This document shows, piece after piece, positions 35,244 through 48,410 of a stretch of DNA of 64,000 bases. The notes under the pieces are model-generated. The model was not told the DNA's origin. It ran no database searches and saw only the letters and a list, made by a program, of their open reading frames with translations. The stretch lies in sequence record KY794643.1; one strand, given 5' to 3'. How positions within the stretch are numbered: the first letter of the stretch is position 1; each line of letters opens with the position of its first letter. The position numbers and the translations under genes are program-made. Source of the stretch: Staphylococcus phage vB_Sau_S24.

Positions 35244-35272
35244 TAGTATATAATCAATTAGGAGGAGAAGTA

Positions 35273-36226: not shown

Positions 36227-36234
36227 TTTATCTG

Positions 36235-36263
36235 TTGACAAGTAGTAAGTAGTGTGGTAAGAT
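36235..36263 (+). promoter_or_regulatory. conserved promoter/leader module, copy 4
   Basis: TTGACAAGTAGTAAGTAGTGTGGTAAGATTAGTATATAAATTAATTAGGAGTGG. Confidence 0.5.
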
Positions 36264-36293
36264 TAGTATATAAATTAATTAGGAGTGGTTACA

Positions 36294-36587: not shown

Positions 36588-36766
36588 ATAAAGTATTAGA
36601 ATTTGTTATGTATTATATATTGTATTTAGTAGCAGGATTTATAGGTGTTTGTGTAGGTAATTTAGTTACAGGAGGAGATATTAATCCTTTTACCTTTTGG
36701 TTACCTTATGTATTTGCTTTAATATTTGCTATAGTAGATTATAGAAGTAGTAACAAGGAGGAATAG
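36584..36766 (+). CDS. small membrane protein (60 aa)
   Basis: ATGA overlap; two TM helices. Confidence 0.45.
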   Translation: MNKVLEFVMYYILYLVAGFIGVCVGNLVTGGDINPFTFWLPYVFALIFAIVDYRSSNKEE

Positions 36767-36768
36767 AT

Positions 36769-37068
36769 ATGATAATATTATACAGAGAGAACTTCAAAAG
36801 AGATACAATGTCAGAACTGCTTACACTAATACAGGATATTAAGCCTGATTGGACTTATTCCTTTAATGATGATAGTGAAGCGGATGTAAAGGTTATAAAG
36901 CATACTGGAAGTAGTTTACCTGATACCGCAGAGGAATTAGTTGAAAGTACTGGAGGATTAGTTATATCTATAGTTGGGAATGGTTGTGTATCAGAATGCC
37001 CTAAGGAATTTAATGCAGGTATGACTGATGTTAGAGAACATATTAGAACATACACATATGGAAAGTAA
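36769..37068 (+). CDS. ~100-aa paralogous family, tandem copy 2
   Basis: MIILYRENFKRDTMSELLTLIQDIKPDWTYSFNDDSEADVKVIKH. RBS AAGGAGGAATAG. Confidence 0.6.
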   Translation: MIILYRENFKRDTMSELLTLIQDIKPDWTYSFNDDSEADVKVIKHTGSSLPDTAEELVESTGGLVISIVGNGCVSECPKEFNAGMTDVREHIRTYTYGK

Positions 37069-37083
37069 TAAGGAGGAATAGAT

Positions 37084-37269
37084 ATGATAGGATTCACAAT
37101 ATTAATTACAATAATAGTTATCATGACTATAGCTATGTACACTCAGGTGTTAGTAGATATGATTCAATCAATCAGATATGATAGATTTGATAAGGTACTT
37201 AACATAGTAACGTTTATACTTATGACAGTTGTACTAGTATCAGGTATTTTAATTATGTTTGGCATTTAG
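37084..37269 (+). CDS. small membrane protein (61 aa)
   Basis: RBS TAAGGAGGAATAGAT. Two TM helices. Confidence 0.45.
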   Translation: MIGFTILITIIVIMTIAMYTQVLVDMIQSIRYDRFDKVLNIVTFILMTVVLVSGILIMFGI

Positions 37270-37376
37270 AGCTCATTTAAGAGTATTCTAAGTAGTAGAG
37301 GATAAATTGTACTAGAAATATAATAGAAGCTCTGTATGGAAGGCTGAGAGGGCTTAGAATTGAAAGGAGAGATTTA

Positions 37377-37691
37377 ATGCAAGCAACTATATACTGTGCT
37401 AATAGGTACAGTAAAAATACATTAAAGAGTCTTTTAGAGAAATTAGAAGCGGAGAATAGAAACTTAACATATAGTACTGACATAGCAGATATGAAGGAAG
37501 TGGATGTTATTGTACAACACACTGACCTATCTTTTGCAGAGTTAATGGATTCTTGTGATAGAGTAAGTAAAGGGTCTGACCGCTTCCAAGTATTTGTAGG
37601 TAATCACGCAGGGTATTATATAAACGGTGATTTATACATTAACGAAGTAGGTAAGTTTATTGTACCTAGGAAAACTAATATGATGATGTAG
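37377..37691 (+). CDS. ~100-aa paralogous family, tandem copy 3
   Basis: MQATIYCANRYSKNTLKSLLEKLEAENRNLTYSTDIADMKEVDVIVQH. Confidence 0.6.
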   Translation: MQATIYCANRYSKNTLKSLLEKLEAENRNLTYSTDIADMKEVDVIVQHTDLSFAELMDSCDRVSKGSDRFQVFVGNHAGYYINGDLYINEVGKFIVPRKTNMMM

Positions 37692-37704
37692 AGGGGGAGA
37701 TTTA

Positions 37705-38004
37705 ATGAACATTAAGTTATCTTATACACCTGATTGTAGAAGAGGTAGTTTAAAAGATATAATACATGCAGTAGAAGACAGTAATAGAAGAACTTTAAGA
37801 TACTCTGAATCCATGAGAGAAGAAGCGGATGTATACGTTATTCAAATAGATGATAGTTTTAAAAATTTACAGAAACATACAAAACAGATTTCTGAAGATA
37901 TTCCTGATACTATATTTATCGTAGTAGGTGATTATTGGGAAATATATTATCGAGGGGAAGGGTTAGGTTTAATGAGTGCACTTCCTATTATTAGAGAGGT
38001 ATAA
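37705..38004 (+). CDS. ~100-aa paralogous family, tandem copy 4
   Basis: MNIKLSYTPDCRRGSLKDIIHAVEDSNRRTLRYSESMREEADVYVIQI. Confidence 0.6.
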   Translation: MNIKLSYTPDCRRGSLKDIIHAVEDSNRRTLRYSESMREEADVYVIQIDDSFKNLQKHTKQISEDIPDTIFIVVGDYWEIYYRGEGLGLMSALPIIREV

Positions 38005-38018
38005 AAGGAGGAGATATA

Positions 38019-38309
38019 ATGATTCATATATTTGTAGTAGAGAACTATAATAAAGAAACATTAGGGGATTTACTTGGATATATTAATACTAATGTAGATA
38101 GGGAATTAACTTACGGTCTTAATACAGAGTATGATAAGGATATAGTAGTTGAAATAGATATGCCAATAGATGAGAAAACTGCACGTGAGTTATCAGGTAT
38201 CGACACATTCAAAGGTGACTTATGTATTATTGTAGAAGAAGGTTACTGTAAGGCATTTCTGAATGGTCACCCTACTCTCATACGTACCTATGTAGAAAGG
38301 ATGATATAA
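38019..38309 (+). CDS. ~100-aa paralogous family, tandem copy 5
   Basis: MIHIFVVENYNKETLGDLLGYINTNVDRELTYGLNTEYDKDIVVEI. Confidence 0.6.
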   Translation: MIHIFVVENYNKETLGDLLGYINTNVDRELTYGLNTEYDKDIVVEIDMPIDEKTARELSGIDTFKGDLCIIVEEGYCKAFLNGHPTLIRTYVERMI

Positions 38310-38596
38310 TGATTAAAATATTTATCGGGAAGCGGGATTATAAATATACTTTAGAAGCGGTATTGAGGTTTATTAAAAATAAGTCTGAAAGAGAGTTTAC
38401 CTATAGTACAAGTGATATGGTTGGTGTAGATGTATATGTATACGTAACTGAGTTATTTAGTAGTAGTCGTATTAGAGAGCACTCAGAAGAATTACCACAG
38501 GATATAATTGTACATATTGCAGACGGTTTAGGTATATATGTAGATGGTGAGATAGTGTCTATTGATGAACTTGAAGATTATATAGAGAGGATGTAA
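38309..38596 (+). CDS. ~100-aa paralogous family, tandem copy 6
   Basis: MIKIFIGKRDYKYTLEAVLRFIKNKSEREFTYSTSDMVGVDVYVYV. Confidence 0.6.
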   Translation: MIKIFIGKRDYKYTLEAVLRFIKNKSEREFTYSTSDMVGVDVYVYVTELFSSSRIREHSEELPQDIIVHIADGLGIYVDGEIVSIDELEDYIERM

Positions 38597-38599
38597 TGG

Positions 38600-38851
38600 A
38601 TGTATTCAAATAGTGTTTATAAGATACCTAAGTATAACGTATATCATAATCCATCTAAGAAAATAATAAAAGAAGATATTGATATAAGAGAATTAGTTCA
38701 TTTATTATTTACTATGCACGAAAAAAACATTATAAAGGTATACCCTATGGATTATGGTCTTTCTCTTTTAACTATTCATGTACAGGAATTAATTAAGGAT
38801 GTTGAAGCGGAAGGAAATATAATTATCAATAGAACAATATCGAGTATATAG
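38600..38851 (+). CDS. ~80-aa paralogous family B, tandem copy 1 of 3
   Basis: Shared pattern: ...Y(T/N)VYH.....K(T/V)I...L......L.......(D/N)I.KVYP.DY... as in the copies at 38930 and 39191. Confidence 0.5.
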   Translation: MYSNSVYKIPKYNVYHNPSKKIIKEDIDIRELVHLLFTMHEKNIIKVYPMDYGLSLLTIHVQELIKDVEAEGNIIINRTISSI

Positions 38852-38905
38852 GATAGGATAGGATAGGATAGGATGAAAATAACTTAGGATGCTTAGGATG
38901 AAATA
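38851..38905. repeat. short tandem repeat: five units of GGATA followed by two TTAGGATG units in an intergenic spacer
   Basis: ATAGGATAGGATAGGATAGGATAGGATG...CTTAGGATGCTTAGGATG. Confidence 0.8.
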
Positions 38906-38929
38906 CGATAAGATAGGAGGATGTAATAA

Positions 38930-39178
38930 ATGTTTAATGTATATTATACAGTTTACCATAGACAAAGTATGAAGACGATTAAAGATTATTTAAGTAGGAG
39001 TGATTTAATTGAATTCTTATATGAGACTTGGAATAAGGATATAAGTAAGGTATACCCAACAGATTATACTACGTATGAAACAAAATTCTGTATAGACATA
39101 GACCTAGATAGATTAATTGAAGCGGTTAATGAAGAAGGTATACTACTTATCAACCGTGGTTATGATGCAGAGTTGTAG
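38930..39178 (+). CDS. family B, tandem copy 2
   Basis: MFNVYYTVYHRQSMKTIKDYLSRSDLIEFLYETWNKDISKVYPTDY...LLINRGYDAEL. Confidence 0.5.
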   Translation: MFNVYYTVYHRQSMKTIKDYLSRSDLIEFLYETWNKDISKVYPTDYTTYETKFCIDIDLDRLIEAVNEEGILLINRGYDAEL

Positions 39179-39190
39179 GAGGAGATAAAT

Positions 39191-39427
39191 ATGAATCAGT
39201 TTTTCACGTATACAGTGTATCATCAAGAATCAGGTAAAGTAGTAGCTAAGGATTTGTTTGATGCATCATTGGTGCACCTTATTAACAAGATGATAGAGGA
39301 AGATTTAGTTAAGGATATAGAATTATCTGACTATAGTATTTCTAATGGGGATATAGCTGTACTTAGTCTAATAAAGGCTATAGAATCACAAGGTGTATTT
39401 CTATTCAAACGTAAGATACATGGATAG
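39191..39427 (+). CDS. family B, tandem copy 3
   Basis: MNQFFTYTVYHQESGKVVAKDLFDASLVHLINKMIEEDLVKDIELSDY...VFLFKRKIHG. Confidence 0.5.
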   Translation: MNQFFTYTVYHQESGKVVAKDLFDASLVHLINKMIEEDLVKDIELSDYSISNGDIAVLSLIKAIESQGVFLFKRKIHG

Positions 39428-39600
39428 GATGTTGACAAATCGTAGAGAGGGCTTAAGTAGTCCTCTCTTATTTAGGTTAGAATGTTGACTAAGTAGCTCC
39501 CTTGTTTTTAGGTTAGAATGTTGTCTAAGTAGTTCCCTGTATTTACAAGTAGCTCTCGATTTTTTGATATAGTTGTAAGTAGCTCCCTCTTATTTCCCCT
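39425..39600. repeat. four degenerate direct repeats of about 35-45 bp (GTTG(A/T)C(A/T)AAGTAGCTCCCT..TTT..); candidate left boundary of the long terminal repeat
   Basis: GTTGACAAATCGTAGAGAGGGCTTAAGTAGTCCTCTCTTATTTAGGTTAGAAT / GTTGACTAAGTAGCTCCCTTGTTTTTAGGTTAGAAT / GTTGTCTAAGTAGTTCCCTGTATTT / GTTGTAAGTAGCTCCCTCTTATTT. Confidence 0.6.
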
Positions 39601-39677
39601 AGTTTATCCCAACCGCTTCAAGCAGACCGCAAAAAGAATCCCCAGGAATTATATTCCCAGGGATTTCTATAATTTTT

Positions 39678-40016
39678 TTATAGAATATTTATAACATTAT
39701 ATTCAAATTGATTTACTTCATGTTTTGATTTAATTAAATTTTTAATTAATCCATTTTGTGTTTTGTACGATTTAATTAACTTTTCATTTTCTATAATTAA
39801 ATTATTGAATTCTTTTTCTGTTGTTTCTTCATCTACATAAAATCTACTTTCATATATTTCATAATATTTTTTATCTGTACCACAATCTAAATCATCTGAA
39901 ATTTGATAATTTTTGAATACAATTTCAGTAGATTCTAATTCATTTTGAATTAATTCTGTTTTTGCATATTGTAACACGTCTTCATTTTCCCACATTGGAA
40001 TATAGTTTATTTTCAT
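39678..40016 (-). CDS. hypothetical protein (112 aa) on the opposite strand to the rest of the LTR genes
   Basis: Clean ORF with a weak RBS. Sits just after the left-boundary repeats. Confidence 0.45.
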   Translation of the reverse strand: MKINYIPMWENEDVLQYAKTELIQNELESTEIVFKNYQISDDLDCGTDKKYYEIYESRFYVDEETTEKEFNNLIIENEKLIKSYKTQNGLIKNLIKSKHEVNQFEYNVINIL

Positions 40017-40327
40017 TTAAATCAAATCCTTTTCTTATAATTTTTTTATATAATTTCTGTAGAAACGGTTGGGGGTTTGTCCCTTGCCTTACTACACTTA
40101 ATATATTACAGTATAGTTATTCAGAAGTCAATACTTTTGAATAACTTTTTTTAAATTCTTTTTTCTTCCATATAATAGTAGTTTTTAGCCCTAAAAATGT
40201 TTTTAAATAAATTTTAAAAAACCTATTGACTTATTAATCATATGGTAGTAATATAAAGGTACAGCAAGGGAACAGCAACAAGATATTAGAATTATATAAA
40301 AAAATTATTTAATTGGAGCTGATTTAA

Positions 40328-40636
40328 ATGGAAATAAAAGAAATTGCAGATGCTATTATGGAGTTGTGGCAGATGGACGGGTACAAATGTTCAGAACCTC
40401 CACTATATGAAAGCACAATCAATCACACACGCAAATATACGGCTTTAATCGTTTCTATTAAAGGAAACTATGAAACTGTTCAGATGTTCCGTAAAACGCC
40501 TTTAATGAGCTTGAGAGGGCAAAGCCAACCGGCTAGCATGTTGGTTAATGTAATTGAAGATGTGATTATAATCGTATATGAAAATACGGTTTACGGTGTG
40601 AAAGATAAAGAAATAAAATTTATTGAAGAAATTTAA
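40328..40636 (+). CDS. LTR early-type gene, hypothetical (102 aa)
   Basis: Promoter TTGACTTATTAATCATATGGTAGTAATAT upstream. RBS TTGGAGCTG. Confidence 0.5.
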   Translation: MEIKEIADAIMELWQMDGYKCSEPPLYESTINHTRKYTALIVSIKGNYETVQMFRKTPLMSLRGQSQPASMLVNVIEDVIIIVYENTVYGVKDKEIKFIEEI

Positions 40637-40840
40637 AAATAGGGGTTGCAATACCCCTTAAGATGTAGTAATATAATAGATGTAAGGGATAGCAACACAC
40701 CTTAAAAACTTTTTTAAAAAGTTAAAGAAAAGTGTTGACAACTTACAAGATACATGTTATTATTAAGATAACAAATAAGACAAGCCACATAGCAAATAAC
40801 GAAATTAAATAAAAAAATTATAGAATAGGATTTGATTATT

Positions 40841-41101
40841 ATGACAAACACAAACAAACAATTTAAAAGATTTGAAGATATGGTAGCAGACAAATTGGAA
40901 ATTTTGAAAAATGTTGATATTGATAATATTGAAGAATTTGAATATAATGAAATTATGGGGGTTACGATTGAATTAACTACAATGATTTTTACAACAAAGG
41001 AATTAACAGAAATTACAGAATCAGAAATTGAACAACATATTAAAAATGAAATTGGATTGACTATTGACGATTTACAACAATTAGAAAATAGTTTTTACTA
41101 A
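40841..41101 (+). CDS. LTR early-type gene, hypothetical (86 aa)
   Basis: Hairpin/promoter (GGGGTTGCAATACCCCTT ... TAATATAAT) followed by RBS ATAGGATTTG. Confidence 0.5.
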   Translation: MTNTNKQFKRFEDMVADKLEILKNVDIDNIEEFEYNEIMGVTIELTTMIFTTKELTEITESEIEQHIKNEIGLTIDDLQQLENSFY

Positions 41102-41217
41102 ATTTAAAAATAGGGCTTGCAAAAGCCCTAAAGATGTAGTAATATAATAGATGTAAGGAACACAAGCACACGGAACAGAAATTAAATAAAAAAATTATAG
41201 AATAGGATTTGATTAAT

Positions 41218-41691
41218 ATGACAAACTTAAACCAATTGAAAGCAATTAAAGTTTCACACCTAGACACTGAGAACAGAAAAACAGTAAGCTACATTTCACA
41301 TGAACAGTTTAAAACTAGCTTTGTAGACGAACGTTGGAAAGGTGAAAGACGTACGAATAACAAATATACTATCTTTGGTTATTACCACACTAAAACAACA
41401 GTTACAAGCCCTAGCGGTAGCCAATCAGTGAGAATGTTCGAATTCCCAGATACTCACGAAGAAGCGGAACTAAACCACCGCAAATACACAAACGACAATG
41501 AAGCACGCTATAGAATTGAACATAGTAACAGTGATGTAAAAACTTTATGGTTACTAGCTAAAAACGGAATTATGAGTTATCAAACTGTACGCAATATATT
41601 TAAAAATGAATCTGATAACTTTATTATCTTCAATAGTAAAAGAACTTATAATAAATTTATGGAAAACAGATACAATAGAAGTTTAGTATAA
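41218..41691 (+). CDS. LTR early-type gene, hypothetical (157 aa)
   Basis: Terminator/promoter TAGGGCTTGCAAAAGCCCTA..TAATATAAT upstream. Confidence 0.55.
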   Translation: MTNLNQLKAIKVSHLDTENRKTVSYISHEQFKTSFVDERWKGERRTNNKYTIFGYYHTKTTVTSPSGSQSVRMFEFPDTHEEAELNHRKYTNDNEARYRIEHSNSDVKTLWLLAKNGIMSYQTVRNIFKNESDNFIIFNSKRTYNKFMENRYNRSLV

Positions 41692-41729
41692 TAGTATAAA
41701 AAAATTATAAAAAAGGAAGTTGATTAATT

Positions 41730-41909
41730 ATGTTTAGAATTAAAATAGATACAAATAAATTAGAAGGTAAAGCATATAAAGAATTTATAGAATTTACAAA
41801 AAATCAAAATTATAATATATATTATAATAATGGAATATTAGATACTTGCATAGATAGTATGGAGGAATTAAATTTATATCCGAATTTAAAACCATATGTA
41901 ATTAAATAA
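41730..41909 (+). CDS. small hypothetical protein (59 aa)
   Basis: RBS AAAAAGGAAGTTGATTAATT precedes the ATG. Followed by hairpin CCCTAGG-attaaatt-CCTAGGG and a T-run. Confidence 0.4.
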   Translation: MFRIKIDTNKLEGKAYKEFIEFTKNQNYNIYYNNGILDTCIDSMEELNLYPNLKPYVIK

Positions 41910-42011
41910 AAAAATTATAGAATTCCCTAGGATTAAATTCCTAGGGATTTTTATTTGTTTCAATTTATATAAAAAAATTATTTAATAAAAAAATTAGTGT
42001 AAAATTGACTG

Positions 42012-42041
42012 TTGACAAGAATATATTTTTTATGGTATAAT
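42012..42041 (+). promoter_or_regulatory. strong promoter TTGACA-N18-TATAAT driving a non-coding element (copy A)
   Basis: GTTGACAAGAATATATTTTTTATGGTATAATGAAG. Confidence 0.55.
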
Positions 42042-42047
42042 GAAGTG

Positions 42048-42330
42048 AAGACCTTTTTTAGTATAAAAATATTATTATATAAAAAATTTATATTAAATGG
42101 TTTTAAAGCCCCTCTTTCTCCCCACCTTGTCATATTTATAGTGGAAGGGTTAGGCGGGTTACCACTGTTTTACTTTCTATATATAGTATACTATGAATAA
42201 CGGTAATTGTCAACACCTTTCAGAAACTTTTTTTACTTTCTTTTATTATTATATAAAAAAATTATATATAAAAAAAGGCTCCAATTCCATTATATAATAA
42301 TTCGGACTTATTGTCAATACTTTTATTAAA
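42048..42330 (+). ncRNA. candidate non-coding transcript, copy A (no credible ORF; conserved 5' end of about 70 nt plus a C-rich tract)
   Basis: Shares ATAATGAAGTGA(A/T)GAC..TTTTTT(AG/CG)TATAAAAATA(A)TATTATATAAAAAA(A)TT(A)TAT with 44020-44090. Has no RBS and no conserved reading frame. Confidence 0.3.
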
Positions 42331-42421
42331 AAAAGTTTTTTAAATTAATTTCAATAAATCTATTGACTTATCTTTTATTATCCTTTAATATATAGGTATA
42401 CCAACAAGGGAGGTAATACAA

Positions 42422-42580
42422 ATGCTAAAATTCAAATGGAAAAACAAAACAATTAAATCAACTCAAAAAACAGATAACATTCTTTTACTTATTATAGGTG
42501 GTTTAGTTGCAACAGTCACACCTAAACTTGTAAATTGGTTTTTACTACTACAAGATAACATAAACATTTTTATTAAATAA
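42422..42580 (+). CDS. small membrane peptide (52 aa)
   Basis: Promoter TTGACTTATCTTTTATTAT upstream. RBS CAAGGGAGGTAATACAA. Confidence 0.4.
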   Translation: MLKFKWKNKTIKSTQKTDNILLLIIGGLVATVTPKLVNWFLLLQDNINIFIK

Positions 42581-42653
42581 GTGTTGACAACTTAGAAATT
42601 ACATGTTAATATTAAGATAACAAATAAAACAACTGAAAAGGAATTGATTAATT

Positions 42654-42962
42654 ATGAAAAACTTACAAAACTTGAAATTTTACTCTTACAGTGGATTTGA
42701 AAGCCCTGAATTACTAGCAATCGGATTTGACAACTTAATAAAAGATTTAACTGTAGAAAGCAATTATCTAGGTGATGTAACAGACGATACTATAGATGAA
42801 TTAAAAGATTGGTTGGATTTGTTTGATACTATTGAAGAAATGCAACAACACCATGAGAATGTAATCAACGGAATTTGGATAAACCCAACATATGAAAATT
42901 TAAAAGATTTTAATTTATCTGTTGGACTTGATGAAAATGATTATATAGAAAGTTTTAAATAA
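42654..42962 (+). CDS. LTR early-type gene, hypothetical (102 aa)
   Basis: Promoter GTGTTGACAACTTAGAAATTACATGTTAATATT upstream. RBS AAAAGGAATTG. Confidence 0.5.
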   Translation: MKNLQNLKFYSYSGFESPELLAIGFDNLIKDLTVESNYLGDVTDDTIDELKDWLDLFDTIEEMQQHHENVINGIWINPTYENLKDFNLSVGLDENDYIESFK

Positions 42963-43124
42963 GTGTTGACAATCTAGAAATTACATGTTATTATTAAGGT
43001 ACAAGGTAAGGGAAGCGGTTGACCGCTTCCAACCTAGTAAAAAAAGTTTTAAAAAACTATTGACAGTCACTTGAAACCATGATATTATTAAGATAACAAA
43101 TAAACAGAAAAGGAATTGATTATA

Positions 43125-43451
43125 ATGAAATTTATCAAAACTATCGAAAACTTATTAGAAAAAGCCGAAAACAAAGGGGAAGCAATTTTAAATGGTCGTA
43201 TGAACATGGGTTGGGGAATGTCTGGAGGACTTGAAGAAAAATATGCAATTGAGATTGACGGTAATAAATTAGTTATGAGACATTGGGGAACACAAACAAT
43301 TGAGATTGACTTAAGCATGAAAGAGATTGTTTCATACTATGGAGAGTCTAACAGTGATAGAGATAGCCTAAACACGCTCGTATATTGCCTAGGGATTGCA
43401 CCAAACTTCCGTTACTTGCCTAGCAAAGATTTATTCATTTACGAAAATTAA
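43125..43451 (+). CDS. LTR early-type gene, hypothetical (108 aa)
   Basis: Two promoters upstream (42965, 43058). RBS AAAAGGAATTG. Confidence 0.5.
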   Translation: MKFIKTIENLLEKAENKGEAILNGRMNMGWGMSGGLEEKYAIEIDGNKLVMRHWGTQTIEIDLSMKEIVSYYGESNSDRDSLNTLVYCLGIAPNFRYLPSKDLFIYEN

Positions 43452-43530
43452 TTAAATAAAGGGCTTGACTTCCAAGCCCTAGCATGATATACTTGTATTA
43501 ACAAATCAAAGAGAAAAGGAATTGATGAAA

Positions 43531-43932
43531 ATGTTCAAATTACAAAATAAAGTGGAAATTATCGTACCTAAGGAAGATAACAACGGTGTTGAGATTGACG
43601 ACTTAGCAATTCGTGAATCATTAGAAAATATCACTAAAATATGTGGAGGTTGTACTACTACAGACGTTAAAGGTCAATGGTATTCAGACAATGAACAACG
43701 TATCATGCAAGACAATAACACTAACCTTGAATGGTACTATAATAAGGCTATGGAGGACGTGAACGACCAACAAGGGCTATTAAAAGGCTTATCAGATATT
43801 ACTAGAATTCTAATCACTGAGTACGGTCAAGAAGGCATTAGCATTAAAATTAATGGTACACTATATATCATTGATGAAAGTGATTTAAATTTCTTATCTT
43901 ATGAATTATACGCTTTAATGTTTAAAAATTAA
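43531..43932 (+). CDS. LTR early-type gene, hypothetical (133 aa)
   Basis: Terminator/promoter AGGGCTTGACTTCCAAGCCCT upstream. RBS GAAAAGGAATTG. An alternative ATG lies at 43525. Confidence 0.5.
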   Translation: MFKLQNKVEIIVPKEDNNGVEIDDLAIRESLENITKICGGCTTTDVKGQWYSDNEQRIMQDNNTNLEWYYNKAMEDVNDQQGLLKGLSDITRILITEYGQEGISIKINGTLYIIDESDLNFLSYELYALMFKN

Positions 43933-43999
43933 ATAAAAAATTTATATAAACCGCTTCGGATTAAATTCTTGAAGCGGTTATTTTCTTTTAAATTAGGGC

Positions 44000-44028
44000 T
44001 TGACAAATGTACGAAAAAATGAGATAAT
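44000..44028 (+). promoter_or_regulatory. promoter TTGACA-N17-GATAAT driving copy B of the non-coding element
   Basis: GCTTGACAAATGTACGAAAAAATGAGATAATGAAG. Confidence 0.5.
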
Positions 44029-44034
44029 GAAGTG

Positions 44035-44170
44035 ATGACTTTTTTTCGTATAAAAATAATATTATATAAAAAAATTATATAAATGAATTTAGTTCGGCTC
44101 TTTCCCGATACCCCTCTTGGGCATCTCTGGTATCTCTACAATTATTATTATACTATGAGTAAGGGAAAAG
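44035..44170 (+). ncRNA. candidate non-coding transcript, copy B (5' region conserved with copy A; runs antisense into the HNH gene)
   Basis: Sequence matches 42046-42110. The downstream flank (44730-44800) matches 42330-42400, which suggests an HNH insertion into a duplicated unit. Confidence 0.25.
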
Positions 44171-44171
44171 G

Positions 44172-44666
44172 TCAACCCTTTCCCTTAAATTCTTTTAAAA
44201 TATATTTTACAGAGTCTAAACTTAAATTATATTCCTTTGCTAGCATTGGCATGGTATACTTATATGGTTTATACTTTTGTTGTATTTCTTTGATTTCTTT
44301 TTGTGTTGGTGCTTTACCTCTTTTGTATCTAAAATCATCAGTTTTATTGTGGTGTGTGGTGTGTTCTAATGGGCTAATACATTCTAGGTTATCAATACAG
44401 TTATTTTGTTTATTACCGTCTATATGGTGGATATGGTAGTCTTTGTTGAAGTCTGTTCCAAAATACTCATATACAAGCCTATGCACTCTGATATTTCTTT
44501 TTGCTATCCTAACTGTTGAATACCCTTTTTTAGTTGCAGAATGTTTTAAAATACGCTCTTTTCCTTTGATGTTACTTTTAACAATACCATTACTAGAAAC
44601 ATAATATTTATTATTTTCATTAGATAATTTTTTTATAAGTTTCCAAATTTCTTTTATTTCTTTCAT
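44172..44666 (-). CDS. HNH homing endonuclease with an AP2/HNH_3-type N-terminal DNA-binding domain
   Basis: HNH motif (YHIHHIDGNKQNNCIDNLECISPLEHTTHH) plus an N-terminal NGIVKSNIKGKERILK...VHRLVYEYFG segment. RBS AGGAGGAATATT. Confidence 0.8.
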   Translation of the reverse strand: MKEIKEIWKLIKKLSNENNKYYVSSNGIVKSNIKGKERILKHSATKKGYSTVRIAKRNIRVHRLVYEYFGTDFNKDYHIHHIDGNKQNNCIDNLECISPLEHTTHHNKTDDFRYKRGKAPTQKEIKEIQQKYKPYKYTMPMLAKEYNLSLDSVKYILKEFKGKG

Positions 44667-44926
44667 ATAATATTCCTCCTAGTTTTTGATTCTCTCTTTT
44701 ATTATATAATAATTTGCCCCCAATGTCAAGAACTTTCTTCAAAATAATTTATTTAAAAAAGTTTCATAAATCTATTGACTTATCTTTTATTATAGTGTAA
44801 TATATAGAGTGTAATAAGGAAGCGGAACACTTAAAAAAAGAAATTAAAAAACTTTTAAAAAAGTGTTGACAAACTTCCAACCACATGTTATTATTAATAT
44901 ATACTAAAGAAAAGGAAATGATAATT

Positions 44927-45181
44927 ATGAAAAAAACATTCGAGCAAGCTTTAAACCACGCACAAGAGGAAATCAGACAAGGCAACTTAGGGGAAACAAT
45001 TGTAACGCTTCAAATAGCATTAAGAAGCAAAGGAATTGTCAAGGTAAGCCAGTTCATGTGTCACAGAAATATGGACGTTGAAACTTTCAAAAATAAAGCA
45101 ATCAAAAACATTTGGGAAAACTTTGAAACAAGCATTGAAGAGTCTGACCTAGAATTACCTTACACAGTGATTTGTAAATAA
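44927..45181 (+). CDS. LTR early-type gene, hypothetical (84 aa)
   Basis: Promoter+leader GTGTTGACAAACTTCCAACCACATGTTATTATTAATATATACTAAAGAAAAGGAAATGAT duplicated at 45375. Confidence 0.5.
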   Translation: MKKTFEQALNHAQEEIRQGNLGETIVTLQIALRSKGIVKVSQFMCHRNMDVETFKNKAIKNIWENFETSIEESDLELPYTVICK

Positions 45182-45255
45182 ATTAAATAAAGGGGTTGAC
45201 ATCCAACCCCTATCATGTTAATATTAGAGTATAAAGAAAAGGGAGGAAATACAAA

Positions 45256-45357
45256 ATGGCAAATTCAAACTTAGGCAACATTCAAAAAATGGCGGACAAA
45301 TTCATGCCACCTGCAGGCTATCCAAATAAGAAGAAAAAGCAAAGCAAAAAGAAATAA
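45256..45357 (+). CDS. tiny basic peptide (33 aa), a candidate only
   Basis: Has its own hairpin/promoter (GGGGTTGACATCCAACCCCT..TAATAT). RBS AAAGGGAGGAAATACAAA. Confidence 0.35.
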   Translation: MANSNLGNIQKMADKFMPPAGYPNKKKKQSKKK

Positions 45358-45436
45358 AAAAATCTAAATAAGGGGTTGACACTTAACCCCTTAGATGTTA
45401 TTATTAATATATACTAAAGAAAAGGAAATGATGACA

Positions 45437-45601
45437 ATGACAAAAACAATCAAACAATTAGAAAGCCAACTTGAAAGGCTAGAAAGAAAATCAGATGAGG
45501 AGTTAGCAAACGGATATTATGATTCATTTGAAAGAACATGTGCACAGATTAGAGAATTAGACCTACAAATCGAATTAAAAAAGAATTCAGAAACTGTTTA
45601 A
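45437..45601 (+). CDS. LTR early-type gene, hypothetical (54 aa)
   Basis: Same leader as the 44927 gene; ATG at the equivalent position. Confidence 0.45.
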   Translation: MTKTIKQLESQLERLERKSDEELANGYYDSFERTCAQIRELDLQIELKKNSETV

Positions 45602-45688
45602 AAAAATTAAATACAGGGCTTGACACTCAAGCCCTAAACCCTTATAATTAGAATTAACAAATAAAACAAATGAGAGGAATTGATAAAC

Positions 45689-45925
45689 ATGAAATTATTA
45701 AACCAAGAAAATCAAATCGTAATTAGCATAGTGACACTTGAGAGTGTCAAAAAAGCCCTAATTTGGGAGTACATCGACCACATAGACAATAACATCCTAG
45801 GCAATAAACTTTATGACACAGAAGCGGTTGTCATTACTTCTGAGACCTTGCAGTCAATCAAATTTGCAGAGACTATGGAAGACCTACAGGAATGCATTGC
45901 AGATATTAATTGGAAATTAGTTTAA
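45689..45925 (+). CDS. LTR early-type gene, hypothetical (78 aa)
   Basis: Hairpin/promoter AGGGCTTGACACTCAAGCCCT..TATAAT upstream. Confidence 0.5.
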   Translation: MKLLNQENQIVISIVTLESVKKALIWEYIDHIDNNILGNKLYDTEAVVITSETLQSIKFAETMEDLQECIADINWKLV

Positions 45926-46015
45926 AAAAGTTTTAAATAAGGTCTTGACTTCCAAGCCCTACAATGGTAATATTAAGGTAGTTAGAAAATACTAAATGAA
46001 AAGGAATTGATTATA

Positions 46016-46360
46016 ATGACAAACTTACTAAACACTATTGAAATGGATTTTGAATATAACGGAGTACAATTTGAGGGAAATTGGAAACATAATGCCTACA
46101 CTGTAGAGCTAACGCATAATGGAGTTACAGAAGAATTTGACTGGAAACAAGGCATGGGAATTTACGAAGAGCCTGAACTAGAAAGAATTTTAGAAAGCTT
46201 AATGCTAGATATTCATTACTATGAAGAAGATATCTATTCAATGTATGAGGACGAAGAACAGGCAGAAAAAATAATTGAGCAGTTAAAAGGGCAAACTAAA
46301 AAGGTAAATAAACTATTTACAGATGAGGAACAAGCAGAGCTAGTTGAATATTTTGAATAG
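46016..46360 (+). CDS. LTR early-type gene, acidic hypothetical (114 aa)
   Basis: Promoter TCTTGACTTCCAAGCCCTACAATGGTAATATT upstream. RBS AAAAGGAATTG. Confidence 0.5.
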   Translation: MTNLLNTIEMDFEYNGVQFEGNWKHNAYTVELTHNGVTEEFDWKQGMGIYEEPELERILESLMLDIHYYEEDIYSMYEDEEQAEKIIEQLKGQTKKVNKLFTDEEQAELVEYFE

Positions 46361-46433
46361 TACCAGGAAGCACACAGAGACACACAGAGAAGCTTAACCG
46401 CTTCTCTAATACAAATATTAGGAGATGTTGAAC

Positions 46434-46697
46434 ATGAAAGTAAAACAACTTAACAATGCCAAGGAACTATACGAAAATTTATTTGCTATCGAATATGATA
46501 GCACTATCGAGGAAGATTGGACGATAGATAATGAATCACTAGAAGCGGAATTATTTTTAGGGTTATCAGATGAGGGCAAAAAGGTTTATGCAATGAGTCA
46601 AGCCAAGCAGTGGGCTAATACTGTTATGGATATGGAAGAAGAGGAATATAGAAGACTTTACGGAAATGATTTAGATTATATTTTAGAGGAGATGTAA
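46434..46697 (+). CDS. LTR early-type gene, hypothetical (87 aa)
   Basis: RBS TTAGGAGATG precedes ATG 46434. Confidence 0.5.
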   Translation: MKVKQLNNAKELYENLFAIEYDSTIEEDWTIDNESLEAELFLGLSDEGKKVYAMSQAKQWANTVMDMEEEEYRRLYGNDLDYILEEM

Positions 46698-46700
46698 ATA

Positions 46701-46874
46701 ATGAACACAAGAAGGGTAAACAAAGCGTTAGACGAAGCAGTTAGATTATTAGATAAGCAAATAGCAGACACACAGAAGACAATGCAGGAGCTAAACAAAC
46801 AACTGGAACAACAAATAAAGGCTAAGCAGGAGCTAATGACACTAGTGGATGCTATGACTGGTGATGATGATTAA
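46701..46874 (+). CDS. small coiled-coil protein (57 aa; below the track cutoff)
   Basis: RBS AGAGGAGATGTAAATA precedes the ATG. Its stop overlaps the next ATG (TAATG). Confidence 0.45.
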   Translation: MNTRRVNKALDEAVRLLDKQIADTQKTMQELNKQLEQQIKAKQELMTLVDAMTGDDD

Positions 46875-47143
46875 TGAACATTAAAGAGGTGCATAATGTT
46901 GTTAAGAGTGCAAAGAGCAAGCTCTTGCAGGAGCAGGAGCACATATCAAATCATGTTATTGAAGACTACATCACAGAGGAGCTACACAGACGCACGCAGG
47001 GAAGCGGAACAATACAGATGAACAATAACACCGCTTCATATAGTAATGACTCATATGGTAGCTTAAAAGAGCTTAGAGAAGCTTATGACCTATCTTCGTT
47101 ATCTACTGGTGAGATTAAAGAGCTGATAAAAACATTTGTTTAA
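46874..47143 (+). CDS. LTR early-type gene, hypothetical (89 aa)
   Basis: Translationally coupled ORF. Confidence 0.5.
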   Translation: MNIKEVHNVVKSAKSKLLQEQEHISNHVIEDYITEELHRRTQGSGTIQMNNNTASYSNDSYGSLKELREAYDLSSLSTGEIKELIKTFV

Positions 47144-47238
47144 ATTTATTTAAAAAAGTTTAGTCAAAACACTTTACAACTATTTAATTTGTATGTTACA
47201 ATGAACTTAACAAATTAAAAGAAAAGGAAATGATACAA

Positions 47239-47460
47239 ATGAGAGACTTACAAGAGAGAAAAAGAGAATTAAAAACATTACTATTTAACTTAGCTATAGA
47301 GAAGAACAGAGCAACTGATGAACAGTTAAGAGAGGTATTAGAACAATCTCATCAAGAGGTGATGAATCAATTAAATAAAGTAAGAAAAGAAATTGAAATT
47401 TTAGTCGAAGAGAAAGAAAGAGAATTTTGGAACGATTTCGATTTTAATGGATTAGATTAA
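47239..47460 (+). CDS. LTR early-type gene, hypothetical coiled-coil protein (73 aa)
   Basis: RBS GAAAAGGAAATGATACAA precedes the ATG. Terminator GAGGGCAAACGCCCTTC followed by TTTATTTTTG downstream. Confidence 0.5.
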   Translation: MRDLQERKRELKTLLFNLAIEKNRATDEQLREVLEQSHQEVMNQLNKVRKEIEILVEEKEREFWNDFDFNGLD

Positions 47461-47519
47461 GAGGAGGGCAAACGCCCTTCTTTATTTTTGTCTTATTATA
47501 TAATTTTTTTATATTATAC

Positions 47520-47585
47520 GGGGGCAGGGGTAAAATGCCACTCAAAGGGGGTGGGTCTATATACCCCTACCCTCTACCCAGGTAC
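47520..47585. other. G-run/C-run island (GGGGGCAGGGG..GGGGGTGGG..CCCCTACCCTCTACCC) in otherwise AT-rich DNA
   Basis: Read directly from the sequence; could form a G-quadruplex or i-motif. Confidence 0.6.
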
Positions 47586-47599
47586 TTATTTTTTGGGGA

Positions 47600-47725
47600 A
47601 AATTATGAAAATAAATATTTAAAAGTCAACACCATTATAATAAGTCAACATTATAACCCTACCCTGTCAGTCAACAATTTATAGTATAAATAAGAAGCCC
47701 TTAAATATAAAGTCAACATATCTAA
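47600..47725. repeat. four direct copies of AAGTCAACA spaced 25-42 bp apart; candidate right LTR boundary, packaging or initiation site
   Basis: AAAGTCAACACC.. / AAGTCAACATTA.. / CAGTCAACAATT.. / AAGTCAACATATC. Each copy reads as a TTGACT -35-like box on the - strand. Confidence 0.6.
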
Positions 47726-47727
47726 AA

Positions 47728-47762
47728 TAAAAAAGAGGAGGTATATTCCCCCCCTCCTCTCT
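47728..47762. terminator. bidirectional terminator hairpin (AGAGGAGG-tatatt-CCCCCCCTCCTCT) that ends the - strand left-arm transcript
   Basis: On the - strand the hairpin is followed by TTTTTTATTTT. Confidence 0.65.
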
Positions 47763-47765
47763 TAC

Positions 47766-48056
47766 CTATACAAGTAATCTTCTATTATCTAGTTCCTGTT
47801 CAACGACATTCAAGTGTTCCCAAACCTCAATCCAGTTTACTCTTGAATCATCATGATAAAGGTGGTAGTCTTGAGGGTTTTCTAAATACTCCTCTAGCTC
47901 GTCAAAGTATAGAACCTCAAAAGCTGTGTCGTCTAAACCTAGTTGAATCTTTAGTATATCCTTATACCCTAATTGTTTATCTCCTATATAAGCTGTGTCC
48001 TCTAATCTCTTCTCTAGTTTATTAAATAATGTTTGTACGCCTTGTAATTCATTCAT
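47766..48056 (-). CDS. hypothetical protein (96 aa)
   Basis: RBS AAGGAGGAATTAATT on the - strand. Confidence 0.5.
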   Translation of the reverse strand: MNELQGVQTLFNKLEKRLEDTAYIGDKQLGYKDILKIQLGLDDTAFEVLYFDELEEYLENPQDYHLYHDDSRVNWIEVWEHLNVVEQELDNRRLLV

Positions 48057-48146
48057 AATTAATTCCTCCTTATTGGTTATATACTTAGTATAAAGGATAG
48101 GAATTAGAATGTCAATAGTTTTATATAAAAAAAAAGAGAAAGAATA

Positions 48147-48395
48147 TTATTCTTCCTCTAAGGTATTATTAATAACTTCTAATTCATGAATAGTAATCAT
48201 ATCCATGCTATCGAATCCTCTTGGGTCTCCTTTAATGAACTCTTGTTCTCCTCTATAGGTAATCTCTTCTTTATACCCTTCTTCTTTAATACGTTTAATT
48301 AAGTTCTCCTTATTTGTATAAACTTCATCTTCTCTGAAATGGAAATTATCTTCATAGGGCTCACAATTATTATGTTCTACTTGATATAGTTTCAT
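48147..48395 (-). CDS. hypothetical protein (82 aa)
   Basis: RBS GAGGAGGATAACTA. Confidence 0.5.
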   Translation of the reverse strand: MKLYQVEHNNCEPYEDNFHFREDEVYTNKENLIKRIKEEGYKEEITYRGEQEFIKGDPRGFDSMDMITIHELEVINNTLEEE

Positions 48396-48410
48396 ATTAG
48401 TTATCCTCCT

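What the first reader, a model, noticed from the sequence alone, without database searches (positions are those of the whole stretch)
39425..47762. Candidate long-terminal-repeat block, about 8.3 kb, bracketed by two different repeat clusters
The left edge has four degenerate direct repeats, GTTG(A/T)C(A/T)AAGTAGCTCCCT..TTT, at 39425-39600. The right edge has a G/C-run island (47520-47585) followed by four AAGTCAACA repeats (47600-47725) and a bidirectional terminator. Between them all genes but two are tiny + strand ORFs with individual sigma-A promoters, the organisation of the terminal redundancy of SPO1- and Twort-like phages. Both repeat types embed TTGAC(A/T) cores without proper -10 boxes. 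They may be protein-binding boundary elements or terminase recognition sites, or they may mark where the repeat is copied.
Basis: partly seen in the sequence, partly recalled or inferred. Interest (0 to 1): 0.55.

Follow-up and report, generated by a model that had tools for sequence, protein, structure and literature searches.

The report
Known phage terminal repeat, left edge misplaced
The block is the early-gene half of the well-known long terminal repeat of a Staphylococcus phage K-like virus; the true repeat starts 4.7 kb further left, so this is an ordinary feature, though two conserved repeat arrays beside it remain unexplained.

Summary
The window comes from a Twortvirinae staphylococcal myovirus, about 98% identical to vB_Sau_Clo6 and close to Stab22. 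The repeats, the G/C island and the promoter-rich small-ORF block are all real.

The terminal-repeat idea is right in kind, but the left edge is wrong. The published 12-bp border inverted repeats of K-like phages occur exactly once each, TAAGTACCTGGG at 34711-34722 and CCCAGGTACTTA at 47577-47588. Read-mapped left termini of relatives start at GGAATTCTTTTACC, which is window 34721. PhageTerm right ends of relatives fall at CTACC|CAGG, which is 47578|47579. The inferred repeat is therefore 34721-47578 (12,858 bp). Stab22 has 12,225 bp annotated.

- **Left array:** five TAAGTAG-core units lie inside the repeat, just 3' of treI. This placement is conserved in K and Twort.
- **Right array:** four AGTCAACA iterons lie just outside the right border.

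In three genera the annotated right end sits 60-61 nt after ACGGGGG and 45-46 nt before the first iteron, although the cut-site sequence differs. This suggests a fixed-distance processing signal, which is untested.

The parts
34676..34709 (.). Short tandem repeat (AATAAAAACA x3.3) in the unique DNA just outside the left LTR border
   Evidence: TRF. The equivalent flank is a variable tandem-repeat zone in relatives: K has a 35-bp unit x2.6 carrying CTAAGTACCT pseudo-borders, SAP6 has a run of about eleven TAAGTAG units, and fGlntSau01 has TAC/TAT arrays.
34711..34722 (+). Left border 12-mer TAAGTACCTGGG (inferred cut TAAGTACCTG|GG)
   Evidence: Exact match, with one copy per strand in 64 kb. 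Published as the LTR border mark of Twort/K-like phages.
34721..47578 (.). Inferred long terminal repeat, 12,858 bp, present once here (collapsed or concatemer-junction form)
   Evidence: K base 1 aligns to 34721 and K 8486 to 47578. IME-SA1/2/3 read-start termini begin GGAATTCTTTTACC. PhageTerm right ends of Maine and fGlntSau01 fall at CTACC|CAGG. The Stab22 LTR is annotated at 12,225 bp and the Stab21 LTR is reported at 11,149 bp.
35071..35099 (+). First LTR promoter (TTGACG-17-TATACT with TG), flanked by the CCGCTTCA/TGAAGCGG inverted repeat. It is the homologue of the phage K TU1 promoter.
   Evidence: The K promoter at 425-454 is classed 'middle' in Table S1 of PMC11598898.
35273..39427 (+). 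Left sub-module of the LTR (treA-H-like small genes), including two tandem paralogue families
   Evidence: ORFs. Six ~100-aa paralogues and three ~80-aa paralogues. Homologues are annotated TreB/C/E/F in Clo6. The K counterparts gp001-008 fall in middle clusters C2/C3.
39444..39590 (+). The first unit sits in the loop of a + strand terminator-like hairpin at 39444-39468.
   Evidence: The cores are conserved while spacers differ in K, A3R, Clo6 and Stab22. Degenerate copies occur in SAP01. Twort has 3 copies 3' of treI. SAP6 has 2 copies.
39637..39665 (-). Terminator of treI, the homologue of the K bidirectional terminator at 3117-3154
39678..40016 (-). treI homologue (112 aa, phrog_3077)
   Evidence: 100% identical to the Clo6 protein, 37% to Twort TreI.
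40328..47460 (+). Immediate-early 'host takeover' genes (treJ, treN, treP, treT, treU and others), each a known PHROG family of unknown function
   Evidence: The K homologues gp010-021 are early and dominate cluster C1.
40735..45973 (+). About ten strong sigma-A promoters (TTGACA-17-TGnTATTAT type) lying in 59-76 nt repeat families
   Evidence: (families D1, D2).
44172..44666 (-). HNH homing endonuclease (treM-like)
   Evidence: Pfam HNH_3 and NUMOD4, PHROG HNH families.
47460..47483 (+). Terminator after treU
47492..47631 (.). Block of about 140 nt straddling the right border, nearly invariant among the K-like relatives aligned. It contains the G/C island at 47518-47588.
   Evidence: Alignment of six phages that are otherwise 81-96% identical. 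292 phage records match this region, and positions 47510-47558 are 96% identical in Silviavirus Romulus. Cross-genus alignment.
47577..47588 (-). Right border 12-mer (CCCAGGTACTTA on the + strand; inferred cut CC|CAGGTACTTA)
47623..47718 (+). Four (A/C)AGTCAACA iterons in unique DNA, 46, 65, 91 and 133 nt beyond the LTR end
   Evidence: Relatives carry 3-5 copies. The same motif occurs just outside the right border in Silviavirus SAP6 and in Twort.
47602..47629 (-). Candidate leftward promoter (TTGACT-16-CATAAT) built on the border-proximal iteron
   Evidence: By eye, comparable -35/-10 pairs are present in SAP6 and Twort. Phage K has a minus-strand RNA, snc004, at 8370-8665 that spans this intergenic region.
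47729..47762 (-). Terminator of the leftward operon of the unique region
47766..48395 (-). First genes of the non-redundant region: 47766-48056, and 48147-48395, which maps by position to the gene annotated BofL ('border ORF L') in Clo6

Best explanation
**What it is.** The block is the right-hand part of the long terminal repeat (LTR) of a Clo6/Stab22-like Twortvirinae phage, plus 184 bp of unique DNA. It runs from treI to treU, and the rightward genes treJ-treU are the immediate-early class in phage K. The LTR itself is inferred to span 34721-47578 (12,858 bp). It is delimited by the family's inverted 12-mers, TAAGTACCTG|GG on the left and CC|CAGGTACTTA on the right.

**How it works.**
1. 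*Established for relatives:* virion DNA carries one LTR copy at each end.
2. *Shown by RNA-seq in phage K:* on entry, host sigma-A RNA polymerase fires the roughly ten strong promoters in 40.7-46 kb and expresses the small Tre proteins within 2 minutes. The left sub-module (treA-H-like genes, 35.1-39.4 kb) is transcribed later as a separate unit. It ends at the convergent terminators next to treI.
3. *Inferred from border geometry and the classical T7 model:* in concatemers a single LTR copy separates genomes. The 12-mer is nicked after its tenth base, on the top strand at the left border and on the bottom strand at the right border. This creates the two mature 5' ends. It also leaves two 3'-OH primers whose strand-displacement extension duplicates the LTR.

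**The two repeat arrays are not the LTR edges.**
- The TAAGTAG array is an internal, conserved cis-element at the seam between the middle and early transcription units. It is most likely a protein-binding array. Its function is not shown.
- The AGTCAACA iterons, together with the G-rich ACGGGGG element, flank the right cut at fixed distances. They most likely form the anchor sites of the right-border processing or packaging complex. This is inferred.
For: **Identity of the phage**
- 303 Staphylococcus/Silviavirus myovirus records match the region.
- The neighbouring 24 kb is 98.1% identical to Clo6 and 96.9% to Stab22.

**Borders**
- The exact 12-mers occur once per strand, and the literature names them as the LTR border marks.
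- K base 1 aligns to 34721, while homology with K is lost upstream of the border.
- Read-start termini of IME-SA1/2/3 begin GGAATTCTTTTACC.
- PhageTerm right ends fall at CTACC|CAGG.
- LTRs of 11-12 kb are known in this clade.

**Gene content**
- Tre homologues are present, and the downstream neighbour maps to the gene Clo6 annotates as BofL.

**Transcription classes**
- K TU1 (gp001-008) is classed middle. gp009 (treI) is also listed as middle but with cluster label 1. gp010-021 are early. Terminators lie at K 3117-3154.
- Promoters in the window are shown.

**Arrays**
- Both clusters are statistically significant.
- Cores are conserved while spacers vary.
- Both arrays recur across genera.
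- Distances are fixed: ACGGGGG to LTR end is 60-61 nt, and LTR end to first iteron is 45-46 nt, in window, K, A3R, Stab22, SAP6 and Twort.
Against: - No reads or virion DNA exist for this phage, so its physical redundancy and exact ends rest on homology.
- The IME-SA study found a sharp left terminus but no sharp right terminus. The right end may therefore be less precise than the model assumes.
- The left 12-mer is not universal. Clo6 has AAGAACCTGGG, Stab22 has TCGTACCTGGG and Maine has TAGGAGCCTG.
- The K LTR annotation is itself 'inferred from sequence similarity', and how the SAP6 ends were set is unknown.
- No protein is known to bind either array.
- The iteron region is also transcribed on the minus strand in K (snc004). 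An RNA-level or promoter role is therefore possible.
- The window's left sub-module has extra sigma-A-like promoters at 35215, 36235 and 36394, so calling it 'middle class' is an extrapolation from K.
Confidence: 0.88

Rival explanations
1. The terminal repeat is 39425-47762, and the TAAGTAG array and the AGTCAACA array are its two boundary elements.
For: - Both arrays are real and conserved.
- The interval is about 8.3 kb, the typical LTR size of classical K-like phages.
- The TAAGTAG core resembles the border 12-mer TAAGTACCTGGG. TAAGTA-type tandem arrays also sit at the outer flank of the true left border in K and SAP6.
Against: - The exact left 12-mer and the mapped terminus sequence are at 34711-34734.
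- In K and A3R the same array lies at 2951-3040 inside LTRs of 8486 and 8306 bp. In Stab22 it lies at about 4040-4140 of 12,225 bp. In Twort it lies at 7683-7740 of 9201 bp.
- The AGTCAACA array lies beyond the PhageTerm-mapped right end.
Confidence: 0.03
2. The internal TAAGTAG array is a vestigial or secondary left border. It would be an older or alternative processing site from a time when only the early module was terminally redundant. It might still be used at low frequency.
For: - The motif is related to the border 12-mer, and unit b reads TGTTGAC-TAAGTAGCTCCC.
- TAAGTAG and CTAAGTACCT arrays occur immediately outside the true left border in SAP6 and K.
- The array sits exactly at the start of the early module in Kayvirus and Twort.
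Against: - Only one high-frequency forward terminus was seen in IME-SA1/2/3.
- The array lacks the CCTG|GG cut-site core.
- In Twort the array lies only 1.5 kb from the right end.
- TAAGTA alone is a common hexamer in this AT-rich genome.
Confidence: 0.1
3. The AGTCAACA iterons and the conserved right-border block act in transcription or as RNA, not in DNA processing. Read on the minus strand they are TGTTGACTT -35 elements. The proximal one would drive a leftward transcript across the border, corresponding to K's snc004. Alternatively the array titrates or positions RNA polymerase.
For: - TTGACT-16-CATAAT lies at 47629 to 47602.
- By eye, appropriately spaced -10-like hexamers follow the first iteron in SAP6 (TTGACT-17-TAATAT) and Twort (TTGACT-16-TATAAA).
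- The minus-strand RNA snc004 was detected at K 8370-8665.
Against: - snc004 starts right at the stop codon of gp022, so it may be 3'UTR read-through.
- Only the proximal iteron has a -10.
- The fold of the minus-strand RNA is unremarkable (z = -1.66).
- No Rfam family matches.
- The K promoter tables list no promoter here.
- This model does not explain the fixed spacing of the cut site between the two motifs.
Confidence: 0.25
4. The iterons, or the internal array, are a replication origin: initiator-binding repeats next to AT-rich DNA.
For: - Both are direct-repeat arrays in non-coding, AT-rich DNA between convergent transcription units.
- The cumulative GC skew turns at 47-48 kb.
Against: - The skew turn coincides with the switch in gene orientation, so it is uninformative.
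- No initiator gene lies adjacent.
- Nothing in the accessible literature places an origin here.
- An origin model does not predict fixed spacing to the LTR end.
Confidence: 0.1

Closest known systems
Long terminal repeats of Staphylococcus K-like/Twort-like phages (K, A5W, A3R, 812, Team1, B1/JA1, 515A1)
   Same: - The same 12-bp inverted border repeats and the same left-terminus sequence.
- The same tre gene set and order: treI on the minus strand, then treJ, treN, treP, treT and treU.
- A downstream neighbour that maps to the gene annotated BofL in Clo6.
- The same internal TAAGTAG array and external AGTCAACA iterons.
   Different: - The LTR here is 12.9 kb against 7.6-8.5 kb. The left half is expanded by tandem paralogues.
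- The early module carries different and additional small ORFs.
- The tandem repeats outside the left border are short here.
Stab20-23 / vB_Sau_Clo6 clade (Stab22 LTR 12,225 bp; Stab21 LTR 11,149 bp)
   Same: - These are the closest genomes, at 97-98% identity in the flanking replication module.
- The LTR is similarly long.
- The internal array is almost identical: 99.6% over 281 nt in Clo6 and 92.5% in Stab22.
   Different: - The right third of the early module is mosaic: 86-95% identical, with indels, and closer to SAP01- or P68-like phages.
- Clo6 has an extra gene inserted just outside the left border and a variant border, AAGAACCTGGG.
- Stab22 has 3 iterons, against 4 here.
Bacillus phage SPO1 terminal redundancy (13.2 kb host-takeover module)
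   Same: From established knowledge, SPO1 also has a long direct terminal repeat packed with small early genes, each with its own host sigma-A promoter. It belongs to the same family, Herelleviridae.
   Different: No sequence similarity was tested or seen here. No border motifs or flanking iterons have been described for SPO1 as far as I know.
T7-type duplication of direct terminal repeats from concatemers; lambda cosN/cosB and pac-site architecture
   Same: - Mirror-image cut sites at the two repeat borders fit staggered nicks followed by strand-displacement synthesis.
- An array of direct repeats beside the cut resembles the terminase small-subunit binding sites (R sites) next to cosN.
   Different: - The repeat is about 80 times longer than in T7.
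- No terminase small subunit or binding protein has been identified for these phages.
- The analogy is inferred from geometry only.
Phage T5 long terminal repeat with first-step-transfer genes and injection stop signal
   Same: Both have a 10-kb-class LTR that carries the earliest genes. Both have a repeat-rich non-coding region near the inner end of the LTR. This comparison rests on established knowledge.
   Different: Two-step DNA entry has not been shown for K-like phages. The motifs are unrelated.

Membership tests
Twortvirinae (K-like) long terminal repeat | 12-bp inverted repeats 5'-TAAGTACCTGGG / 5'-CCCAGGTACTTA separating the LTR from non-redundant DNA | tested here: met
   Exact copies at 34711-34722 (+) and 47577-47588 (-), the only two in 64 kb. 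The defining statement appears in PMC4111496, PMC6022877 and PMC7596081.
Twortvirinae (K-like) long terminal repeat | Left physical terminus sequence GGAATTCTTTTACCTCTC... | tested here: met
   The window reads GGAATTCTTTTACCTCTCCCACTCAGCCTA from 34721. IME-SA1/2 high-frequency read starts read GGAATTCTTTTACCTCTCTCACTCAGCCTA. K bases 1-197 align at 89%.
Twortvirinae (K-like) long terminal repeat | Right end at ...CTACC|CAGGTACTTA, followed by leftward genes of the unique region (BofL side) | tested here: met
   Alignment to K 8486 and A3R 8306. PhageTerm ends of Maine and fGlntSau01. The - strand genes at 47766-48395 map to the region that includes the gene annotated BofL in Clo6.
Twortvirinae (K-like) long terminal repeat | Terminal-repeat-encoded (tre) gene set | tested here: met
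   Homologues are annotated TreB/C/E/F/J/N/P/T/U in Clo6, SAP01 and Stab22. treI is confirmed by tblastn. PHROG families match every ORF tested.
Twortvirinae (K-like) long terminal repeat | Physical duplication of the segment at both virion DNA ends (two-fold read depth) | not testable with these tools
   No reads or virion DNA are available. The window shows one copy flanked by right-end and left-end unique genes, as expected for a collapsed assembly.
Immediate-early host-takeover module (SPO1/K type) | Cluster of small ORFs, each preceded by a strong host sigma-A promoter | tested here: met
   Ten extended -10 consensus promoters on the + strand at 40735-45945, in repeat families D1 and D2.
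Immediate-early host-takeover module (SPO1/K type) | Transcription within the first minutes of infection | not testable with these tools
   Shown only for the phage K homologues gp010-021 and gp014-018.
Terminase recognition site of cos/pac type (cut site plus adjacent array of binding repeats) | Direct repeats adjacent to the cleavage site at conserved distance | tested here: met
   The first AGTCAAC lies 45-46 nt from the annotated LTR end, and ACGGGGG lies 60-61 nt on the other side, in six phages of three genera.
Terminase recognition site of cos/pac type (cut site plus adjacent array of binding repeats) | Binding of the repeats by the small terminase subunit or another packaging protein, and a requirement for packaging | not testable with these tools
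   No binding protein has been identified. This needs EMSA or DAP-seq, and mutagenesis.
T5-type injection stop signal | Two-step DNA entry pausing at a repeat-rich site in the LTR | not testable with these tools
   Considered only by analogy. No data exist for K-like phages in the papers read.

The most novel reading that the evidence does not exclude
The position of the right LTR end may be set by distance rather than by the 12-mer sequence alone. Two anchor elements would do the measuring: the G-rich ACGGGGG...ATGC(C/A)AC element 60-61 nt inside the end, and the AGTCAACA iteron array starting 45-46 nt outside it. Both anchors are conserved across Kayvirus-like phages, Silviavirus and Twortvirus, while the cut-site sequence itself differs (CTACC|CAGG, CTACCT|AAGG, CTAGTT|GGGG). 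On this reading the arrays are the long-sought packaging and repeat-duplication signal of Herelleviridae-type long-terminal-repeat phages. The internal TAAGTAG array would be a related protein-binding element, either an insulator or a vestigial border.
Probability: 0.3. Interest if true: 0.5.

Novelty: new member of a known kind. Interest (0 to 1): 0.22.

Why it matters
As an LTR call it matters mainly for correct annotation. The genome should be opened at 34721, and its packaged length should include a second 12.9-kb copy. The early module inside it holds the host-takeover genes relevant to the safety and engineering of phage therapy.

The modest added value is comparative. Both repeat arrays are conserved across genera, and the right end keeps a fixed spacing between two conserved motifs. 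That gives a concrete, testable candidate for the cis-acting signal that defines and duplicates long terminal repeats in SPO1/Twort-type phages. I know of no characterised mechanism for that process, and the papers I could read describe none.

Tried and rejected
- **Rfam E-value scan of 34000-48500.** Only two sub-threshold chance hits, so no known RNA family accounts for either array.
- **RNA fold of the minus-strand intergenic region 47461-47765.** z = -1.66, mostly the two terminators, so there is no evidence for a structured RNA.
- **Full-text searches for the motif strings AAGTCAACA and TAAGTAGCT.** Nothing relevant.
- **Other literature searches.** Searches on Twortvirinae borders and on the Twort LTR found nothing.
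- **Papers I could not read.** The Lobocka 2012 chapter and Sergueev 2019 ('hypervariable repeat locus' of Sb-1) are not held. I cannot exclude that the arrays are described there.
- **IMG/VR scan for the right-border string.** One contig only, so no extra diversity was gained.
- **PDB sequence searches.** No usable match for treI or for the 136-aa ORF labelled 'SAM hydrolase' in SAP01.
- **Bipartite inverted repeat, considered and rejected.** TGTTGACT-N35-12-mer is mirrored at both borders. On the left, however, the TGTTGACT is the C-terminal EYVD-stop codons of ORF 33586-34677, and its spacing differs in K, Stab22 and Maine. It is probably coincidence.
- **AAGTAG depletion in the early module.** 0 observed against 4.6 expected. 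This is too weak to interpret.
- **GC-skew turn at 47-48 kb.** It coincides with the change in gene orientation and says nothing about an origin.

Full report
**1. What the window is**

The interval 39000-48200 matches 303 phage records, 302 named Staphylococcus phage and one Silviavirus. All of those examined are Herelleviridae/Twortvirinae myoviruses. The 24 kb to the left is 98.1% identical to vB_Sau_Clo6 and 96.9% to Stab22. No record covers the whole region at 99% or more, so this is a new mosaic member of the Clo6/Stab22 clade.

Genes run rightward up to about 47.46 kb and leftward from 47.77 kb.

**2. Checking the observation**

All the described sequence features exist.

- **Left cluster.** It has five units, not four, with the core (T/C)AAGTAG(C/T)(C/T)C at 39455-39590.
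- **Right cluster.** It has three exact AAGTCAACA copies and one CAGTCAACA at 47623-47718. These are the only + strand AGTCAACA in 64 kb.
- **Significance.** In 300 Markov simulations of the window, no sequence reached more than two same-strand hits within 150 nt for either motif.
- **G/C island.** Positions 47518-47588 are 55% G+C in a 30% genome.
- **Genes and promoters.** The block between the clusters carries small + strand ORFs, all matching PHROG families. There are two - strand genes, treI and an HNH endonuclease. About ten consensus sigma-A promoters with the extended -10 lie in 59-76 nt repeat families.
- **Terminator.** The terminator at 47729-47762 scores only on the - strand.

**3. 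Where the terminal repeat really is**

The phage K record annotates its LTR as 1-8486. K bases 1-197 align to window 34721-34916. The K treI region (from 3106) aligns from 39623, and K 8647 aligns to 47738.

*The border motifs.* Three papers state that LTRs of Twort/K-like phages are separated from unique DNA by the 12-bp inverted repeats TAAGTACCTGGG and CCCAGGTACTTA. The window contains exactly one copy of each, at 34711-34722 and 47577-47588.

*The left end.* High-throughput read-start analysis of IME-SA1/2/3 found a single sharp left terminus beginning GGAATTCTTTTACCTCTCTCACTCAGCCTA. The window reads GGAATTCTTTTACCTCTCCCACTCAGCCTA from 34721. Upstream of that point, homology between the window and K ceases. 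Downstream it is high.

*The right end.* PhageTerm-defined repeat ends in Maine and fGlntSau01 fall at ...CTACC|CAGGTACTTA. This corresponds to 47578|47579.

*The size.* The inferred LTR is therefore 34721-47578, or 12,858 bp. That is longer than the 7.6-8.5 kb of classical K-like phages. It agrees with the 12,225 bp annotated for Stab22 and the 11,149 bp reported for Stab21. The extra length comes largely from tandem paralogues in the left half: six ORFs of about 100 aa and three of about 80 aa.

**4.

In phage K RNA-seq, gp001-008 (treA-H) form a 'middle' transcription unit that ends at a bidirectional terminator at 3117-3154. The next gene, gp009 (treI), is transcribed leftward. The rightward genes gp010-021 form the early units and dominate the immediate-early cluster. 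A second study detected gp014-018 transcripts at 2 minutes.

It therefore equals treI plus the immediate-early module of the LTR, plus 184 bp of unique DNA.

**5. The left (internal) array**

- K and A3R have four CTAAGTAGCTC units at 2951-3040, with different spacers and spacing.
- Clo6 and Stab22 share the window's five units.
- SAP01 has degenerate copies.
- Twort, a different genus, has CTAAGTA / TAAGTAGC / CTAAGTAGC at 7683-7740, again just 3' of treI and its terminator.
- Silviavirus SAP6 has two TAAGTAGC copies at 5083 and 5271.

Core conservation with spacer turnover argues for a protein-binding array rather than coding sequence or RNA structure.

TAAGTA-type tandem arrays also occupy the outer flank of the true left border in K and in SAP6. 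K has a 35-bp unit x2.6 carrying CTAAGTACCT pseudo-borders. SAP6 has a run of about eleven TAAGTAG units. A relationship to border recognition is therefore possible but unproven. The function of the array is not established.

**6. The right border complex**

About 140 nt (47492-47631) are almost invariant among six K-like phages whose flanks are 81-96% identical. The G-rich part is 96% identical even in Silviavirus Romulus.

The iteron copy number varies from 3 to 5. The same AAGTCAACA iterons lie just outside the right LTR end in SAP6 and Twort.

In the window, K, A3R, Stab22, SAP6 and Twort:

| Measure | Distance |
|---|---|
| ACGGGGG to annotated LTR end | 60-61 nt |
| LTR end to first AGTCAAC | 45-46 nt |
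| ACGGGGG to first iteron | 105-106 nt |

The sequence at the cut differs between genera (CTACC|CAGG, CTACCT|AAGG, CTAGTT|GGGG), yet these distances hold. This points to a nucleoprotein complex anchored on the two conserved motifs. I regard it as the best candidate for the right-border processing or packaging signal.

There are caveats:
- The ends in some records were set by similarity or by unknown methods.
- The IME-SA data saw no sharp right terminus.
- The same DNA is transcribed on the minus strand in K, as snc004 at 8370-8665.
- The proximal iteron forms a plausible leftward promoter.

**7. Mechanism**

*Shown in relatives:*
- The LTR is present at both virion ends.
- Host sigma-A polymerase transcribes the early module immediately.

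*Inferred:*
- The two 12-mers are in inverted orientation, and the mapped ends fall after base 10 of each. Nicks on opposite strands would therefore produce the two mature 5' ends.
- The same nicks would leave 3'-OH primers for strand-displacement copying of the single concatemeric LTR. This is the classical T7 scheme, which I cite from established knowledge.

*Not shown:*
- Which protein nicks the DNA.
- Whether the arrays are required.

**8. Dead ends**

- No Rfam family matched.
- The RNA fold was unremarkable.
- TreI and the ORF labelled 'SAM hydrolase' in SAP01 had no PDB homologues.
- Motif strings were absent from the searchable literature.
- Key papers were not held.
- An apparent mirror-image TGTTGACT-N35-12-mer at both borders is probably coincidental. 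The left copy encodes the C-terminus of an ORF, and its spacing is not conserved.

**9. Verdict**

This is a correct family-level recognition of a well-known feature, with the left boundary misplaced by 4.7 kb. The repeat arrays are real, conserved and functionally unexplained. The fixed-spacing architecture at the right end is the only part that might repay experiments.

Noticed in passing
window 36285-39427: The left half of the LTR consists largely of two tandem paralogue families. Six ORFs of about 100 aa are 18-31% identical and share a LTYS...EADV motif. Three ORFs of about 80 aa are 36-39% identical. This expansion accounts for much of the unusually long (12.9 kb) LTR.
   Followed up: partly
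window 40290-44082 (six copies, e.g. 40803-40825, 41180-41202, 41900-41922); also 39664-39686 and 47495-47517: An A/T palindrome-like motif, AATTAAATAAAAAAATTATAGAA / ATAATTTTTTTATA, recurs in the 5' leaders of early genes. It also lies next to the treI terminator and immediately before the G-rich island. Similar sequences occur at the equivalent Twort sites. It may be a regulatory or bending element.
   Followed up: no
window 35048-35092; also 36074-36091 and 39612-39620: The inverted repeat CCGCTTCA...TGAAGCGG brackets the -35 box of the first LTR promoter, exactly as in phage K 405-445. GAAGCGG/CCGCTTC copies recur elsewhere in the LTR. This looks like an operator for the 'middle' treA-H unit.
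   Followed up: no
window 34676-34709; L006 (K) 2241-2331; L009 (SAP6) 565-650; L018 (fGlntSau01) 150-400: The unique DNA just outside the left LTR border is a variable tandem-repeat zone in every phage examined. In K the 35-bp unit carries CTAAGTACCT pseudo-borders that differ from the real border only in TTG versus GGG. It may correspond to the 'hypervariable repeat locus' reported for Sb-1, a paper I could not read.
   Followed up: partly
window 34668-34675 and 47624-47631: TGTTGACT lies 35 nt outside the left 12-mer and its reverse complement lies 35 nt outside the right 12-mer, giving a 55-nt bipartite mirror. The left copy is the last codons (EYVD-stop) of ORF 33586-34677, and the spacing is not kept in K, Stab22 or Maine. 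It is probably chance.
   Followed up: yes
window 40017-47578 versus 34721-39427: The hexamer AAGTAG (either strand) is absent from the early module (0 observed, 4.6 expected) and enriched in the left LTR half (13 observed, 5.3 expected). Stab22 shows the same pattern.
   Followed up: partly
window 43522-43932: The homologue in vB_SAP01 is annotated 'SAM hydrolase (similar to 7OCK_L)'. This 136-aa protein has no Pfam hit and no PDB sequence match at E<1, so the label is unsupported by sequence.
   Followed up: partly
window 39678-40016 (treI): A TreI homologue at 49.5% identity is encoded by the unrelated 92-kb siphovirus vB_SepS_SEP9. The G15 and MCE-2014 records begin 22 nt before the treI stop, right after the internal array.
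   Followed up: no
L004 (Clo6) 1432-1940 versus window 34675-34720: The closest relative, Clo6, carries an extra 119-aa gene and about 130 nt of AC-rich repeats inserted exactly between the last unique ORF and the left LTR border. Its border reads AAGAACCTGGG instead of TAAGTACCTGGG.
   Followed up: partly
L012 (Twort) 195-215 and 533-555: Twort has a second copy of its left-border sequence (AACCCCAGAACTTTTTC) about 340 bp upstream of the real border, a pseudo-border analogous to those of phage K.
   Followed up: no
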